Assembly (NCBI RefSeq): GCF_050920415.1
Contig: NZ_CP169309.1
From: Escherichia coli
GTDB taxonomy: Bacteria; Pseudomonadota; Gammaproteobacteria; Enterobacterales; Enterobacteriaceae
Strand: one strand, 5' to 3'
Length of the DNA stretch: 64,000 bases
The first letter of the stretch is position 1. The number at the start of each line of letters is the position of its first letter. A program made the position numbers and the translations under genes. Shown here piece after piece: positions 43,646-48,900 of this stretch. Below the pieces are notes generated by a model that saw only the letters and a list, made by a program, of their open reading frames with translations, was not told the DNA's origin and did not search any database.

Positions 43646-43961
43646 ATCCCCCTCCCTTGATACCAATATTTACAACATGGCAAGCCTCTTTGAGCACCCA
43701 GTCAACAGCGTCTTTCCATGCTCCGGTTTCGGCTGGCGGATTCTCACGCTTTACCAGTTCATAGAAACGTACTGCTCTAACCAGTCCATCTGACGGTTTT
43801 GCCTGTAGTGCAGCCTGAGCTATGCGGTATGCCTGGAGTATACGGGCGTCGTTGATATCCATTCCGAACGGAATTTCTGATGATTGTGATTCTGCATCTT
43901 CAAGCCTGGCAATTTCTTTACGTAAGAAGTATTTCAACTCTTGTTTTTGTTTTCTGTTCAT
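43626..43961 (-). CDS. Hypothetical protein (cargo operon gene 4)
   Basis: 111 aa ORF, no recognised family. Confidence 0.45.
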
Positions 43962-44290
43962 GCGTTTTTTCCCTTTTTGTCTGTCACTTCTCTCCTGATA
44001 ATTTCATTGCACAAATCCACGCACTCATTGCAGATGTAAACAGACGGTCCAGCAATCACCTTTGTGACTTCGTACTGGGATTTATTGCAGAAGCTGCAAT
44101 AAATCGTCTCCTCACCTGAAGTCCATGTTTTGCTGGTTTCGCCAGACATCAGTTGTTTGAGGTCTTTTTCACGACGAAGAACTATCTGGCCACATTCAGC
44201 TATTTTTTGGATGTTGACATTTTCTTCTTTCGCCAGCGCTTCCATCCGCTCAATCAGTCGCTGCGCTTTTTCTCTGTCAATGTGTTGCAT
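43958..44290 (-). CDS. Small protein with C-terminal ClpX-type C4 zinc-finger domain
   Basis: C-terminus [38 protein letters not shown] closely matches the recalled N-terminal zinc-binding domain of ClpX. Confidence 0.7.
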
Positions 44291-44353: not shown

Positions 44354-44665
44354 TTATTCGGGAAATAACGCCCGGATATTTCCGGCCATCTGACTGGTTA
44401 TCTGTGCGGCTGATACTGGCTGTGACGCGGGGCGTTCTGTCCTGGGTTGTGTCACTGATAACGCCTCATCATCAGCCCATGCAGCCAGTCGGTAAGCCTC
44501 TGCCGGATTCATTTTCAGTAGTGCCAGCCCGGCCAGAAAAGCCACGCGTTGACCACTTTTGCGGGCTTCTGGTGTAAGGCTGTCCAGCCAGGCGCATGCT
44601 TCGCCTTCGTTCTTGACGGCGGCGGGCTTCAGATAGAAACTTATCCGTCTGGTTGGTGTCGTCAT
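44354..44665 (-). CDS. ParR-like DNA-binding adaptor
   Basis: About 103 aa from MTTPTRRISFYLKP...LDSLTPEARK...AFLAGLAL...ALFPE; resembles recalled plasmid R1 ParR. Confidence 0.65.
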   Translation of the reverse strand: MTTPTRRISFYLKPAAVKNEGEACAWLDSLTPEARKSGQRVAFLAGLALLKMNPAEAYRLAAWADDEALSVTQPRTERPASQPVSAAQITSQMAGNIRALFPE

Positions 44666-44669
44666 TGGC

Positions 44670-45629
44670 TTACTCCTTGTCCATTGCGTACAGCCCATTA
44701 ACCAGAGCAAACTGTGGCACCCCGTCCGCGATGAAAGTCGCATTAACTCCGCAGGCTTCGCGGATAGCGGGTGCCACAATCTCCGCCCCGCCACCGACAA
44801 CCATCACCCGCCCGTAACCCGAAAAACCCGCCAGCGCGCGGATCACGCGTTGTTTCAGTGTTTCTTCCTTTTCACGAATAACCGCCATCAGGCTGGCGTA
44901 ATGCGCGTCATTGTGGATGTGCTGGCGCAGCCAGGCTTCATCATGGCGATGTTCAATAATGGTATTGGCGATGTGGTGACTGGTGCGCATACCGTTAGTG
45001 GCCATCACCGACAGCACGGCATCGGCCATCAGTGAAACACCTACGTGTGGATCGCAAAACACCTGGCTGATACCTGCCAGTTGTCCCTGAACCTTTGCCA
45101 CATCCAGCGTGGTTCCGCCCAAATCCACAATCAGCAGGGATTCAAACGGACTCATGTCAGCCAGTGCCTTAAAGCCTGCCGGAATGGATTCAGGCATAAC
45201 CCGCACGTTACGGATAGTGAATGCCTCACCGTTCTGGTACTCCACCGGGCGCATAACGTTCGCTTTTTTGCGGTTGATGTTGGCCATGTCCGGCTGTGCG
45301 TTTGTGTCGAAATACTCGCTCAGTGGCAGGGTGACAACCACATCCACCTCCTGTGGCGTGATGCCTGATTTGACCAGCGCGTGATGAATGGCAATGACAT
45401 TCACATCGCTGTATTGGTATTGCGTGTCGGTCGTCTGGACAAAGCGATCGCTGACCGGATCAAAACCATAGCGCACGCCATCAAGCATGTAGTTCGCGGG
45501 CTGCGTGCCACCGAACGGCGCAGACCATTCCGACTTGAAGCTGTTCGGGCTGATGGCGTTGCGGCGTTCGCCGTTCTCAGTCCATGCCAGCTTGATGTTG
45601 GTGGAGCCGTCGTCGATACAAATTTTCAT
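44670..45629 (-). CDS. ParM/StbA-like actin-fold ATPase
   Basis: 319 aa; N-terminus MKICIDDGSTNIKLAW...ISPNSFK and ...YSDVNVIAIHHAL... closely resemble recalled plasmid R1 ParM. Confidence 0.85.
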   Translation of the reverse strand: MKICIDDGSTNIKLAWTENGERRNAISPNSFKSEWSAPFGGTQPANYMLDGVRYGFDPVSDRFVQTTDTQYQYSDVNVIAIHHALVKSGITPQEVDVVVTLPLSEYFDTNAQPDMANINRKKANVMRPVEYQNGEAFTIRNVRVMPESIPAGFKALADMSPFESLLIVDLGGTTLDVAKVQGQLAGISQVFCDPHVGVSLMADAVLSVMATNGMRTSHHIANTIIEHRHDEAWLRQHIHNDAHYASLMAVIREKEETLKQRVIRALAGFSGYGRVMVVGGGAEIVAPAIREACGVNATFIADGVPQFALVNGLYAMDKE

Positions 45630-45660
45630 GTCGCTTTTCCTTATGTTGATTAATTAATCG

Positions 45661-45756
45661 TTTACGGGATTCTGAAATCCCGTTTTTGCCTGCTTTGTGC
45701 GCGCTTCATATATCACTGCGCGTTTTTTGCTCATTTACGGGATTCGTGAGTCCCGT
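45661..45756. promoter_or_regulatory. Two 20-bp palindromes upstream of parM (candidate parC-like centromere/operator)
   Basis: ACGGGATTCTGAAATCCCGT (45664..45683) and ACGGGATTCGTGAGTCCCGT (45737..45756), each preceded by TTT; the second overlaps the last codons of gene A. Confidence 0.5.
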
Positions 45757-48528
45757 TTCTGTCTGTTTTTTGTTTCCGCTGGTCAGGCCACCCCGCAGCA
45801 GGTCTGCTTTGCGGCTGGCGCGTTCAGTGGTTTCACTGATTCTCTGTGCGTGCTCTGCGTCGCGGATGGCGCGCAGCATGTCAGAAAGCACAGTAACGGG
45901 TGTTTTCATGGTGTTCTGGTCCTGCTGAAGTGTGGATGCCAGGCGTGCGGCGGCTTCAGGGTCTGATGCCCCCAGCTGTGCCAGATAGCTGGCGACCGGG
46001 TTATGGCGGATCTCCGTGCTGCTTACGCCATGATTACGGCTCAGGCGCTGCCAGAGCTGCGTGATTCGGCTGTCCGGGCGGGTATCCGGTTTGCGTACAA
46101 TTTCAAATCCCTGCGGTGCAATGATGCTGCCGTCAACGTACAGACTGCCGCCCCGTAACAGGTGCTGCATCTGTTGTTCACCGATATGCAGGCCGAGAGA
46201 TTCAGCAGACTCCCGCCATTCTTTAGCGAGTAATTCGTGGTTATCAGGCAAAGGCCGCTGCTGTTTGCGGCTCTGTGTCCAGCTCTGCATTTCATCACTG
46301 CTGTTTTTTGCCTGTTTGTCACGAAGCGAACGCATCAGCGCCCGGCGTTCGTGCCGTTTCAGTGAGCGCATCCATTCGTTCACTTCAACGCCGTCAGGGA
46401 GCTGCGGCCACGGTGCTGGCCGTTCTTCCGGCTGTTCTGTCCCGTTGTTGTCCGTTTCCTGTGCACGGGGACAGTTATTGCCACGAGTCCAAGGGGCGGC
46501 AGGGCCGCCCTGAAGGTCAAAACCATTTTCGTGGGCGTTGTCTCCCGGTTCTGGTTTACGTCTTACCAGCTTCCAGTTATCCGGATGCGTGCACACACGG
46601 GAGGATTCCCCGATGAGTGGTGACCAGATCCCGTAAATCTGTACGCTCTGTTCGCCGTAATCGTTCAGCTCATCTGCGAGGTCGTAGGCGGTGCGAATCA
46701 GGTAGTCCTTGCGTGGAACAAGCACGCCACCCTGTTTTTCAATGTAGGTGGCAAAACACCCGGCATCGGCGGCAGCGAGTACCGCATCCATTGCATCATC
46801 TTTCAGCCGTTGCGGGCCTTCCGGATTGCGTGCCATCTGGCTGGCAAGGCGGCGCAGTTCACGCCACACCTGACGGGAGGGGATGCCAAAGAACTGGAAC
46901 TGACGGACCCGGTGAAGGCGCGCCCAGCCGATGGCGCGCTCCACGCTCTCGGCCATTGATTTTCCGGTTTCGTGGTCAACGCGTGGCTTGCCCGTTTTCG
47001 GGTCGATGCCATCCACGGCGCGGCTGTCCAGGTTCTTTCCGATGTAGGTGGCGATGTAGCTGGTTGGTGTGCCTTTTGAGCCGTCGACATACTCCGCCTT
47101 AAAACGCGGAGTTATGTCATCGCCCAGCTCGTGGCGGTCCTCCTGAATGGCAATATCGCAGACGTGGGACACGATGGTTTCAATCTCGTCCGGATGTGCA
47201 AAGACCATCATATGCCAGTGCACAGTGCCGTCATGGTGAGGCTCCACCGTGCGGATGCCATACCAGCGCAGGCCGTCGCGGTTCAGTTTTTTGCGGACCG
47301 CCGCAAAAAACGTGTTAACCAGGTAATCGCTGGAGTCGCGCATGGTGGCCCCGTTCCATTTGGGGTTCGGATGACCGTTCTCCGTTGTTGCGTGGTATTT
47401 TGACGGGCAGGTGACGGTCAGAAACACCGCTCTGTCGCCACGGGCTTCGGCCAGAAGTTCCAGTCCCTTCATGGTGGCCATCATTTCTGCCTTACGGTGA
47501 ACCGGGTTACTTACTCCCGCGTAATACACCGTCTCGAGATCAATCGTGAACCCGTCTTCATTTTCCAGCATGAAACTTTTCAGGAAATCGCGTGTTTTCT
47601 CGCGCTGTGCGCGAAACTCGCTTAACGCGTCCTGGCTCAGATAGGGGGATGTTTTTCTGGAAACCAGACAGGCGGCGCGGAGTTGTTCTTCCCGCCACTC
47701 ACAACGTAACAGCCACAGTTTGCGTTTCCACCATTCCGCACAGGTCAAGCGAAGGATTGCGCCCGGCAGCAGCTCCGTGTCCGGTTCGTTCCTCCGGTCT
47801 TTGTCTGTTGTCAGTGCGTCATAATGTGGAGGCATGGCGTGCAGGTGTAACGCCATGCGGGCCAGCATCTGATAAGCCTTCAGGGTTACATCCATGGTCA
47901 GCTCGCCATCAGTCGCGCCAAAGCCATCGCAGAGTTTTTCGAAGGTGCTGCTGAACATCGCCGCCGTCATGGTGGCCAGCGTCTGTATCTGGTGTTTGTT
48001 GAGCTGCGGCAGGTAAAGCAAATCGTCCAGGCGTTCGCGTCCGGCAAGGGAGCGATAACCCGGTGTCAGCCAGCGGTGGTCGGTGCGGTCCAGACGTTCG
48101 AATATTTTGCGCAGGGTTCCGCACGCGTAGCGTTCAGCCTGCCAGCTCTTTTTGCCTTTCCGGCGATCGGCTTCCTGTTTTTTGCGCAGGAAGGAGAGGT
48201 GGCGAATAAGCGGATCGCGCAGATAGGACGGCAGCAGGCGCAGCGAGGCCATGGCTTCATCCACCGCGCCACGTGCCTGTTTTCTGGCGTCTCCTGCCAG
48301 TGTGATGGTTTTGTCCTGTTTTTCCTGTGCGTCCAGGCTTTTATTAATCAGGTTGCCCAGCGGCGTGGCGGAGAACGCCGCATCAGCCATTTCCTGGCGG
48401 CGCTCGTTCTCTGCCCGGTAGGCATCCAGCCAGGAGGAAAGCGCGGATTCAGGAGCGGGGATCCCCGTTCCTTCACGCCCCACTGCGTGGCGCGGTTGTT
48501 GCCAGTCCCTGATGTACTCTGCCGTCAT
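45706..48528 (-). CDS. Replication initiation endonuclease (P2 gpA-like, rolling-circle)
   Basis: 940 aa at the canonical position downstream of the early operon; longer than the ~760 aa I recall for P2 A. Confidence 0.8.
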   Translation of the reverse strand: MTAEYIRDWQQPRHAVGREGTGIPAPESALSSWLDAYRAENERRQEMADAAFSATPLGNLINKSLDAQEKQDKTITLAGDARKQARGAVDEAMASLRLLPSYLRDPLIRHLSFLRKKQEADRRKGKKSWQAERYACGTLRKIFERLDRTDHRWLTPGYRSLAGRERLDDLLYLPQLNKHQIQTLATMTAAMFSSTFEKLCDGFGATDGELTMDVTLKAYQMLARMALHLHAMPPHYDALTTDKDRRNEPDTELLPGAILRLTCAEWWKRKLWLLRCEWREEQLRAACLVSRKTSPYLSQDALSEFRAQREKTRDFLKSFMLENEDGFTIDLETVYYAGVSNPVHRKAEMMATMKGLELLAEARGDRAVFLTVTCPSKYHATTENGHPNPKWNGATMRDSSDYLVNTFFAAVRKKLNRDGLRWYGIRTVEPHHDGTVHWHMMVFAHPDEIETIVSHVCDIAIQEDRHELGDDITPRFKAEYVDGSKGTPTSYIATYIGKNLDSRAVDGIDPKTGKPRVDHETGKSMAESVERAIGWARLHRVRQFQFFGIPSRQVWRELRRLASQMARNPEGPQRLKDDAMDAVLAAADAGCFATYIEKQGGVLVPRKDYLIRTAYDLADELNDYGEQSVQIYGIWSPLIGESSRVCTHPDNWKLVRRKPEPGDNAHENGFDLQGGPAAPWTRGNNCPRAQETDNNGTEQPEERPAPWPQLPDGVEVNEWMRSLKRHERRALMRSLRDKQAKNSSDEMQSWTQSRKQQRPLPDNHELLAKEWRESAESLGLHIGEQQMQHLLRGGSLYVDGSIIAPQGFEIVRKPDTRPDSRITQLWQRLSRNHGVSSTEIRHNPVASYLAQLGASDPEAAARLASTLQQDQNTMKTPVTVLSDMLRAIRDAEHAQRISETTERASRKADLLRGGLTSGNKKQTETGLTNPVNEQKTRSDI

Positions 48529-48534
48529 AGTGAT

Positions 48535-48900
48535 TTACTTCGTCATGCCATTCAGGGTGTCGCGGCAGACTGTAGCCAGCCGCTGAATTTCCAGCACGGT
48601 GTCTTCTGTGTCGGCATGGCGATGTGTGATGCGGATGCTGTCGGCAATCACATCGACGATTGCAGAGGATGGGCGCTGGTAAATGCCAATAACGGACGGG
48701 GTGCCACCTTCAATGCGGTAAAGCCTGTAATTTCCCTCGTGGCTGTCAATCATGTAGCGACCATCAATAACAATCTTTCCGTCAGCGAGCTGCGGTACAG
48801 GCAGGGATTTCAGGTACATGTCATAACGATCACGCACGCGAGCGGCAAGATCACGTTCTGTGTTGAGCAGGTATTCAAGAAAGTCGTTGGCGAGAATCAT
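48535..48900 (-). CDS. Hypothetical early protein (gpB position)
   Basis: 121 aa ORF immediately upstream of A. Confidence 0.45.
   Translation of the reverse strand: MILANDFLEYLLNTERDLAARVRDRYDMYLKSLPVPQLADGKIVIDGRYMIDSHEGNYRLYRIEGGTPSVIGIYQRPSSAIVDVIADSIRITHRHADTEDTVLEIQRLATVCRDTLNGMTK

What the first reader, a model, noticed from the sequence alone, without database searches (positions are those of the whole stretch)
45706..48528. Unusually long replication protein A whose 3' end overlaps the parM regulatory palindrome
The A-like ORF is 940 aa, versus the roughly 760 aa I recall for P2 A, and its last ~15 codons run across the second palindrome upstream of parM. Either A carries an extra C-terminal domain or the ORF is read through into regulatory DNA.
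Basis: inference. Interest (0 to 1): 0.3.

Follow-up and report, generated by a model that had tools for sequence, protein, structure and literature searches.

The report
P88-type replication protein A, cargo-encoded tail
This is the ordinary replication-initiator gene of a P88-like (P2-family) E. coli prophage; 940 aa is the normal length for this phage group, and only its last 29 codons are incidental read-through into the neighbouring plasmid-partition (parMR) cassette.

Summary
The 940-aa ORF (45706-48528, minus strand) is real. It is the gpA-type rolling-circle replication endonuclease of a Xuanwuvirus (P88-like) prophage and is 98.7% identical to P88's annotated 940-aa protein. Homologues of 940-946 aa form database clusters with thousands of members, so the length is typical for this subgroup.

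Against P2 A (761 aa), the extra residues are:
- an N-terminal insertion of about 65 aa;
- a C-terminal extension, aa 827-911, that is under purifying selection and is also present in a Hafnia homologue with 62% identity;
- a 29-aa tail, aa 912-940, predicted to be disordered.

The tail is not part of the A gene proper. Relatives with other cargo between gpA and gpQ lose all DNA similarity to the window after codon 911, and each has its own short tail. A Hafnia phage with the same parMR cassette keeps both palindromes but reads them in another frame and stops inside the first one. Phage Chuche has a frameshifted tail.

The two palindromes sit in 42-bp repeats spaced 73 bp apart and travel with parM/parR, so they are probably the parC centromere/operator. 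ParR binding was not tested.

The gpA-gpQ hotspot and its partition cargo are already published. Interest is low.

The parts
45706..48528 (-). Gene A: gpA-type HUH rolling-circle replication endonuclease, 940 aa
   Evidence: ORF. Pfam Phage_GPA 1.7e-129 over aa 179-503. PHROG 91 'nicking at origin of replication' 1.7e-273. 98.7% aa identity to the P88 replication protein.
47020..47994 (-). Phage_GPA catalytic core, aa 179-503. Includes the HUH motif H437-W-H439 (47212-47220) and the tyrosine pair Y491/Y495 (47044-47058).
   Evidence: Pfam match. H437, W438, H439, Y491 and Y495 are invariant across P2, 186 and 14 other homologues. That these are the catalytic residues comes from my recollection of the published P2 A work, not from a test here.
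46471..46496 (-). Putative origin of replication (nick site) inside gene A, in the codons for PWTRGNNC
   Evidence: Aligns with the annotated P2 and 186 ori nick sites. C-T-GGA-T--TG-CAATAACTGT is invariant. Synonymous divergence from the Hafnia gene is suppressed in this stretch: pS 0.31 versus 0.56-0.73 in the flanking segments.
45796..46050 (-). Lineage-typical C-terminal extension of A, aa 827-911, lying beyond the end of P2 A. aa 827-870 is shared with a subfamily of A proteins. aa 877-911 is a long predicted helix specific to the P88-like lineage.
   Evidence: Alignments A1 and A3. Homologues P0153, P0155, P0157-P0159 and SW5 share the WQR..NHG...IRhnPVg.Y segment. AlphaFold2 predicts a helix at model residues 374-410. 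dN/dS is about 0.32 against the Hafnia gene.
45709..45795 (-). 29-codon tail of A, aa 912-940 (RGGLTSGNKKQTETGLTNPVNEQKTRSDI), encoded by the left edge of the parMR cargo cassette. The stop codon is at 45706-45708.
   Evidence: DNA similarity to relatives with other cargo ends after codon 911. At least four cargo types each have their own tail. Hafnia reads this DNA in another frame. Phage Chuche has a frameshifted tail. pLDDT is below 50.
45731..45772 (.). Distal 42-bp repeat with palindrome 45737-45756, inside A codons 920-933. Putative ParR-binding (parC) site.
   Evidence: Conserved as DNA in the Hafnia cassette at the same 73-nt spacing.
45658..45699 (.). Proximal 42-bp repeat with palindrome 45664-45683, between the A stop codon and the parM ribosome-binding site. 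Putative ParR-binding (parC) site.
44670..45629 (-). parM, actin-like segregation ATPase, 319 aa
   Evidence: Pfam StbA_N 1.8e-82 and ParM C-terminal domain 1.3e-68. 95% identical to the Hafnia copy although the two A proteins are only 62% identical.
44354..44665 (-). parR-like centromere-binding adaptor, 103 aa (Plasmid_stab_B)
   Evidence: Pfam PF10784 1.2e-23. P88 annotates the same 312-nt CDS as 'partition protein'. 75% identical to the Hafnia copy.

Best explanation
The ORF is the genuine replication initiator of a P88-like (Xuanwuvirus, Peduoviridae) prophage: a gpA-type HUH nickase that cuts an origin lying inside its own gene.

Its 940 aa are the normal length for this lineage. Compared with P2 A it has four additions:
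- an N-terminal insertion of about 65 aa;
- an 8-aa insertion after the catalytic tyrosines;
- a conserved C-terminal extension, aa 827-911, which completes a small alpha/beta domain and adds one long helix;
- a 29-aa disordered tail, aa 912-940.

The tail is a by-product of genome architecture. The known gpA-gpQ cargo hotspot of P2-like phages begins inside the A reading frame, right after codon 911. A therefore has no stop codon of its own and is translated into whatever cassette sits there until a stop codon occurs.

In this window the cassette is a type II partition module, parC-parM-parR. The first ~87 nt of the cassette, including the distal of two 42-bp repeats that probably bind ParR, are therefore translated as the end of A.

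Shown here: the ORF, the homology, the typical length, the module junction, the frame-independence of the palindromes, and the predicted disorder of the tail.

Inferred: that the palindromes are the ParR centromere/operator, and that the tail has no function.
For: Identity and typical length.

Where the extra residues lie: alignments.

The extension is a real protein segment:
- it is conserved in frame in the Hafnia homologue, which is 62% identical overall;
- dN/dS is about 0.32 for aa 827-911, similar to the neighbouring C-terminal domain;
- it is shared in part with distant A proteins;
- it is predicted to be structured.

Junction after codon 911:
- DNA alignment of the window with L012, L013 and L015;
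- tails QDKGNSEKKK (AAA + Peptidase_S8 cargo), HRTR (other cargo), QKRGKQHFSNQ... (Dam methylase + AAA_15/21 cargo), and the parMR tail.

The palindromes are constrained as DNA, not as protein:
- the Hafnia cassette (ParM 95% identical) keeps both palindromes and the 73-nt spacing;
- there, A is in another frame and stops at a TGA inside the first palindrome;
- isolated phage Chuche has a +1 A insertion that frameshifts the tail, and P0125 has another frameshifted tail.

Population data: the conserved 3' part of A occurs at 1,526 places in complete E. coli genomes, and the tail/parC segment at 1,242 of them.

The hotspot and its partition cargo are described in PMC9122126.
Against: - ParR binding to the palindromes is untested. 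Only two sites are visible, whereas as I recall the classical parC regions of R1 and pSK41 have more repeats.
- No sigma-70 consensus promoter was found upstream of parM. There is only a weak candidate that overlaps the A stop codon, so it is open how parMR is transcribed.
- On the + strand both palindromes score as intrinsic-terminator-like hairpins.
- Among elements that carry parMR, the tail sequence is fairly well kept, with about 7 of 28 positions variable among proteins that are 82% or more identical. That is also what conservation of the underlying DNA site would produce, so a role for the peptide is not strictly excluded.
- Some frameshifted tail variants in the databases may be sequencing errors in the A-runs.
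Confidence: 0.85

Rival explanations
1. The cassette-encoded tail is a functional adaptor: a parMR-specific C-terminal peptide on A that couples replication initiation to the partition machinery, for example by contacting ParR or ParM.
For: Among parMR-bearing elements the tail is translated in the same frame in most database sequences, with limited variation. Each cargo type brings its own tail.
Against: Hafnia uses the same cassette in another frame and has a different, shorter tail. Phage Chuche, an isolated phage, and P0125 have frameshifted tails. The tail is predicted to be disordered, with pLDDT 36-41. Conservation of the tail is explained by the DNA repeat beneath it.
Confidence: 0.05
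2. The two palindromes are transcription terminators rather than ParR sites. They would be intrinsic terminators for + strand transcripts, meaning late P-Q operon read-through running antisense across the hotspot, that insulate gene A.
For: The terminator scan reports both on the + strand: 8-bp stems, 4 G-C pairs, followed by T-rich tails. The hairpins fold at about -10 kcal/mol.
Against: They lie at the far end of parMR, so an antisense transcript would already have crossed both par genes. The hairpins are weak, with + strand z-scores of only about -2. The repeated unit is 42 bp and extends beyond the hairpin. The two copies are 73 bp apart, about 7 helical turns. They sit exactly where type II systems place parC. 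On the sense strand they lack a U-run, so they would not terminate A transcripts. The two roles are not mutually exclusive.
Confidence: 0.1
3. The long ORF is an artefact: a wrong start codon, a frameshift fusion with a downstream gene such as a P2 orf91 equivalent, or a sequencing error.
For: Two public phage records, 520873 and 503458, show the gene split into several CDSs.
Against: The N-terminal motif W9..P12..A15 is invariant from P2 to this protein, so the start is correct. The same 940-946-aa ORF is present in over a thousand complete genomes and several isolated phages. Pfam finds no DUF3850 or any other second-gene domain in the C-terminus. The split records are the exception.
Confidence: 0.01

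Closest known systems
Escherichia phage P88 replication endonuclease (YP_009113059.1, SF19_gp16; Xuanwuvirus, Peduoviridae)
   Same: 940 aa, 98.7% aa and 98.1% nt identity. Same neighbours: a 121-aa ORF upstream and parM/parR downstream. Same 76-nt A-parM spacer.
   Different: Only point differences. In practice it is the same gene.
Phage P2 gpA (NP_046795.1, 761 aa) and phage 186 A (NP_052289.1, 694 aa)
   Same: Phage_GPA core with HUH motif and tyrosine pair. The post-core domain is shared. The origin lies inside the gene at the NNC-coding segment. The gene is the last in the early operon, next to the gpA-gpQ cargo hotspot.
   Different: About 30-35% identity. P2 and 186 lack the ~65-aa N-terminal insertion, the 8-aa DPKTGKPR insertion, the aa 827-911 extension and the cargo-encoded tail. 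Their downstream cargo differs: orf91/tin/old in P2, tum in 186.
Type II (ParMRC) plasmid partition systems, e.g. R1 parMRC
   Same: Gene order is repeats, then parM, then parR. ParM is an actin-like ATPase and ParR belongs to the Plasmid_stab_B family. Repeated DNA lies immediately upstream of parM.
   Different: ParM is only about 52% identical to the nearest true plasmid ParM. The upstream site consists of two 20-bp palindromes 73 bp apart, not arrays of short direct iterons as seen in the plasmid locus L016. One of the two sites lies inside a translated ORF. Almost all copies are in integrated prophages: 1,240 of 1,242 places.
gpA-gpQ hotspot of P2-like prophages (Rousset et al. 2022, PMC9122126)
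   Same: Same locus. The paper already notes that about a quarter of P2-like phages carry a putative plasmid partitioning system there.
   Different: In the passages I read, the paper treats the hotspot as lying between the genes. Here the left boundary maps inside the A ORF, after codon 911, so the last residues of A change with the cargo.

Membership tests
gpA-type (Phage_GPA, PF05840) HUH rolling-circle replication endonucleases | Significant match to the family profile over its full length | tested here: met
   PF05840 E = 1.7e-129, profile positions 1-321 of 321, aa 179-503. PHROG 91 E = 1.7e-273.
gpA-type (Phage_GPA, PF05840) HUH rolling-circle replication endonucleases | HUH metal-binding motif and paired catalytic tyrosines (Y-x3-Y) | tested here: met
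   H437-W-H439 and Y491/Y495 are invariant in alignments with P2 A and 186 A. Their catalytic role is taken from my recollection of the published P2 A work, not tested here.
gpA-type (Phage_GPA, PF05840) HUH rolling-circle replication endonucleases | Cognate origin (nick site) within the A gene, acted on in cis | tested here: inconclusive
   A 26-nt segment at 46471-46496 aligns with the annotated P2 and 186 nick sites and shows suppressed synonymous change. Nicking itself cannot be tested here.
gpA-type (Phage_GPA, PF05840) HUH rolling-circle replication endonucleases | Genomic context of a P2-like phage: last gene of the early operon, next to the gpQ-side hotspot | tested here: met
   Synteny with P88, including Cox, C repressor, integrase, portal and terminase.
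Type II ParMRC partition system | ParM actin-like ATPase | tested here: met
   StbA_N 1.8e-82 plus ParM C-terminal domain 1.3e-68.
Type II ParMRC partition system | ParR adaptor encoded directly downstream of parM | tested here: met
   PF10784 Plasmid_stab_B 1.2e-23. The gene starts 4 nt after parM ends.
Type II ParMRC partition system | parC: repeated ParR-binding sites upstream of parM that contain the autoregulated promoter | tested here: inconclusive
   Two 42-bp repeats with palindromes are present and move together with parMR. There are only two copies, no consensus promoter and only a weak candidate promoter. ParR binding cannot be tested with these tools.
Type II ParMRC partition system | Stabilises an extrachromosomal replicon | not testable with these tools
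   1,240 of 1,242 copies in complete E. coli genomes are chromosomal. One 34,461-bp circular 'plasmid' record is a whole P88-like genome.

The most novel reading that the evidence does not exclude
The gpA-gpQ hotspot junction lies inside the replication gene, so every cargo swap rewrites the C-terminus of the initiator. In parMR-bearing phages the distal ParR site sits in translated DNA. The most novel reading still open is that this overlap is functional. ParR bound at the intragenic palindrome, or the cassette-specific tail itself, could couple A expression or activity to partition. That would let an integrase-bearing, rolling-circle P2-like phage persist as a segregating plasmid under some conditions.
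Probability: 0.07. Interest if true: 0.5.

Novelty: already known. Interest (0 to 1): 0.15.

Why it matters
The practical value is for annotation. A 940-aa gpA next to parMR is the normal state of a very common E. coli prophage type, found in about a quarter of complete genomes. It should not be flagged as a fusion or read-through error.

The one modest new point is that the left edge of the well-known P2 cargo hotspot lies within the A reading frame. The last residues of the initiator, and its stop codon, are therefore supplied by the cargo. This matters for delimiting hotspot cassettes in defence-system mining, and for anyone engineering this locus.

Whether the partition cassette ever lets these phages live as plasmids remains open. 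This analysis does not address it.

Tried and rejected
- Pfam on the C-terminal 251 aa, the N-terminal 178 aa and aa 504-691 at E up to 10 gave only sub-threshold noise (Death, PSK_trans_fac).
- NCBIfam has no model that matches A.
- The PDB sequence search found nothing.
- AlphaFold2 of aa 504-940 gave a usable domain map (mean pLDDT 68.7, pTM 0.32), but Foldseek against the PDB gave no match with E below 1. The fold of the C-terminal domains stays unassigned.
- An exhaustive HMMER search of 1.84 billion representative proteins with aa 690-940 returned only 28 hits, nearly all fragments of gpA proteins. One hit, a 2,998-aa cadherin/RTX protein with 14 short matched stretches, was judged spurious.
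- The homologue search with the last 141 aa returned almost only partial E. coli fragments.
- I looked for closer plasmid relatives of this parMRC so that parC could be compared outside the phage context. The nearest true plasmid ParM is only about 52% identical, and its upstream region (L016) has unrelated direct iterons.
- The consensus promoter scan upstream of parM found nothing.
- The P88 genome paper does not discuss gene A or the partition genes.
- I considered a fusion with an orf91-like gene and rejected it, because there is no DUF3850 match.
Full report
**1. Observation**

The ORF listing returns a 940-aa ATG-initiated ORF at 45706..48528 on the minus strand. Directly downstream on the same strand are two genes:
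- a 319-aa ORF at 44670..45629 that matches both ParM Pfam domains (StbA_N 1.8e-82; ParM C-terminal domain 1.3e-68);
- a ParR-like gene, Plasmid_stab_B, 1.2e-23.

The A stop codon (45706-45708) is 76 nt from the parM start codon. The repeat finder shows two 42-nt direct repeats at 45658-45699 and 45731-45772. They are 79% identical and start 73 nt apart. Each contains a near-perfect 20-nt palindrome, ACGGGATTC..GAnTCCCGT.

The distal palindrome (45737-45756) covers A codons 925-931. A degenerate search for the palindrome finds only this locus in the window, against 0.17 matches expected by chance.

**2. Identity**

The ORF matches Pfam Phage_GPA over the whole profile (1.7e-129, aa 179-503) and PHROG 91, 'nicking at origin of replication'. 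The DNA is 98.1% identical to Escherichia phage P88 (Xuanwuvirus, Peduoviridae). In P88 the same gene is annotated as a 940-aa replication endonuclease, flanked by the same 121-aa ORF upstream and by parM and a partition protein downstream.

The HUH motif (H437-W-H439) and the tyrosine pair Y491/Y495 are invariant in alignments with P2 A and 186 A. The N-terminal motif W9..P12..A15 is also invariant, so the start codon is correct.

**3. Is 940 aa unusual?**

It is unusual only relative to P2 (761 aa) and 186 (694 aa). Other Peduoviridae A proteins are 804 aa (Gegavirus) and 878 aa (Irrigatiovirus SW5).

In the large protein collection, close relatives of 940, 941 and 946 aa form clusters of 707, 3,025 and 16,881 member sequences. 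The conserved 3' part of the gene occurs at 1,526 places in 1,366 of 5,426 complete E. coli genomes.

**4. Where the extra residues are**

Alignment with P2, 186, Gegavirus and SW5, and with 16 homologues, places the extra length as follows:
- an insertion of about 65 aa at aa ~20-85, shared with Gegavirus and SW5;
- an 8-aa insertion (DPKTGKPR) after the catalytic tyrosines;
- everything beyond the invariant W826, which is where P2 A essentially ends.

The segment aa 827-870 (QRLSRNHGVSSTEIRHNPVASY...) recurs in SW5 and in distant gpA proteins found by an exhaustive HMMER search (P0153, P0155, P0157-P0159). The segment aa 877-911 is specific to the P88-like lineage but is conserved in frame in a Hafnia homologue that is only 62% identical overall (P0105).

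Between the window and the Hafnia gene, aa 827-911 has dN/dS of about 0.32, the same as the neighbouring C-terminal domain. The 35-codon helix on its own gives a noisier value of about 0.75.

An AlphaFold2 model of aa 504-940 (30-sequence alignment, mean pLDDT 68.7) predicts:
- a folded domain at aa 504-653;
- a disordered linker at aa 660-705;
- helices at aa 716-755;
- a small alpha/beta domain at aa 764-855;
- one long helix at aa 877-913;
- a disordered tail at aa 917-940 (pLDDT 36-41).

No Pfam family, PDB sequence or PDB fold matches the C-terminal half. So there is a real extra C-terminal region, of unknown fold family, that is lineage-typical.

**5. The last 29 codons belong to the cargo, not to A**

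Homologues that are 95-96% identical to the window protein but 916 or 910 aa long (P0029, P0034) differ only at the very end. Their genomic loci carry different cargo downstream of A: an AAA ATPase plus a Peptidase_S8 gene (L012), or unrelated genes on the opposite strand (L013 and L014).

A DNA alignment shows that similarity to the window weakens across codons ~903-911 and is lost completely after L910-L911.

Sorting all retrieved homologues by the sequence after '...LL' gives discrete tail classes:
- RGGLTSGNKKQTETGLTNPVNEQKTRSDI with parMR;
- QDKGNSEKKK with AAA + Peptidase_S8;
- HRTR with the opposite-strand cargo;
- QKRGKQHFSNQNDDEKKQLQSWICLFHHEG with a Dam methylase plus AAA_15/21 cassette (L017).

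The A ORF therefore has no terminator codon of its own. It runs into whichever cassette occupies the site.

This site is the gpA-gpQ hotspot described by Rousset et al. 2022, who also note that about a quarter of P2-like phages carry a putative plasmid partitioning system there (PMC9122126). In complete E. coli genomes, 1,242 of the 1,526 copies of this A gene carry the parMR-type tail region.

**6. The palindromes are constrained as DNA, not as protein**

The Hafnia element has the same cassette: ParM is 95% identical and ParR 75% identical, although its A protein is only 62% identical. It keeps both 42-nt repeats at the same 73-nt spacing, with palindromes GGGATTCATGAATCCC and GGGATTTGAAAATCCC. 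Its A gene reads this DNA in a different frame and terminates at the TGA in the centre of the first palindrome, giving the tail ...NNKQKRDS*.

Other evidence points the same way:
- Phage Chuche, an isolated phage, has one extra A in the A-run just upstream of the palindrome. Its tail is frameshifted and the protein is 938 aa.
- P0125 has another frameshifted tail.
- Several database fragments read through in other frames.

The tail peptide is therefore not under frame-specific selection, while the DNA repeats are retained with the par genes.

**7. What the palindromes are**

The most likely role is parC, the ParR-binding centromere/operator. The arguments are their position immediately upstream of parM, their co-transfer with parMR, and a spacing of about 7 helical turns. 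This is inference and binding was not tested.

There are caveats:
- Only two sites are visible.
- No sigma-70 consensus promoter is found.
- A weak, positionally conserved candidate (TGAGCA-15 nt-TGaTATATG, 45733-45707) overlaps the A stop codon.
- On the + strand both hairpins (about -10 kcal/mol) are followed by T-runs and score as terminator-like, so a role as terminators for antisense transcripts is a rival or an additional function.
- On the sense strand they lack a U-run, so A transcripts probably continue into parMR.

The nearest true plasmid ParM is only about 52% identical, and its upstream iterons are unrelated. No independent comparison of parC outside the phage context was possible.

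**8. Verdict**

The feature is real but ordinary. It is the already annotated replication endonuclease of a very common prophage type, with a length normal for its lineage.

The only modestly new point is that the hotspot boundary lies inside the A ORF, so the cargo supplies A's last residues and its stop codon. Novelty: already known. Interest: low.

Noticed in passing
window 46471-46496 (minus strand), inside gene A codons ~678-686: Putative replication origin. The DNA encoding PWTRGNNC aligns with the annotated P2 and 186 nick sites (invariant C-T-GGA-T--TG-CAATAACTGT). Synonymous divergence from the Hafnia gene is suppressed here: pS 0.31 versus 0.56-0.73 in flanking segments. AlphaFold2 predicts that the encoded peptide, aa 660-705, is disordered.
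   Followed up: partly
L011 (NZ_CP148288.1, pZ1323PEC0009-2); A 34,461-bp circular E. coli 'plasmid' record is a complete P88-like phage genome with integrase, Cox, A, parMR and the structural genes. Only 2 of 1,242 copies of the parC/tail segment in complete E. coli genomes lie on plasmid records. Whether it is a true plasmid state or an excised circle captured by the assembly is unknown.
   Followed up: partly
window ~48225-48900 (5' ~100 codons of A and the upstream 121-aa ORF 48535-48900): The N-terminal ~100 aa of A exist in two unrelated-looking alleles: the window/P88 type MTAEYIRDWQQ... and the P0042/Chuche type MNEFAWSWNEP.... The alleles seem to go with the version of the upstream ORF (121 aa versus 129 aa). 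This suggests a second recombination junction inside A.
   Followed up: no
window 45712-45722 and 45762-45775 (minus-strand A-runs CAAAAAACG and AAACAAAAAAC flanking the distal palindrome): Homopolymer A-runs on either side of the intragenic palindrome are where the frameshifted tail variants arise (phage Chuche +1 A; fragments P0017-P0021, P0125). Some may be sequencing errors. Others, such as Chuche, are in isolated phages.
   Followed up: partly
window 45640-45790 versus 45800-46100; Across E. coli genomes the tail/parC segment is more diverged than the adjacent A coding DNA. For the tail/parC segment only 2 records reach 99% identity and most are 90-97%. For the adjacent A coding DNA 645 records reach 99%.
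   Followed up: no
window 43958-44290 (minus strand): A 110-aa ORF in the hotspot, downstream of parR, has a ClpX-type zinc-finger motif (CSFCNK...CNECVDLC). P88 annotates it inconsistently as 'carboxylate--amine ligase / ClpX'. A zf-C4_ClpX ORF also sits in the hotspot of a relative that lacks parMR (L018).
   Followed up: no
L002 (NC_049344.1) and L003 (NC_049341.1): In the RefSeq records of phages 520873 and 503458, gene A (and parM in 503458) is split into several CDSs. These are probably assembly frameshifts, and the annotation there is misleading.
   Followed up: no
P0152 (2,998 aa): A giant cadherin/PA14/RTX protein matched A aa 831-871 in 14 short stretches (E = 1.2e-14). I judged this a compositional or repeat artefact and did not examine it further.
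   Followed up: no
window 45640-46100; Two short queries from the window, 45640-45790 and 45800-46100, are 100% identical to E. coli strain 23CRST001 (NZ_AP045758.1, around 1,318,797-1,319,257). That genome has two copies of the element.
   Followed up: no
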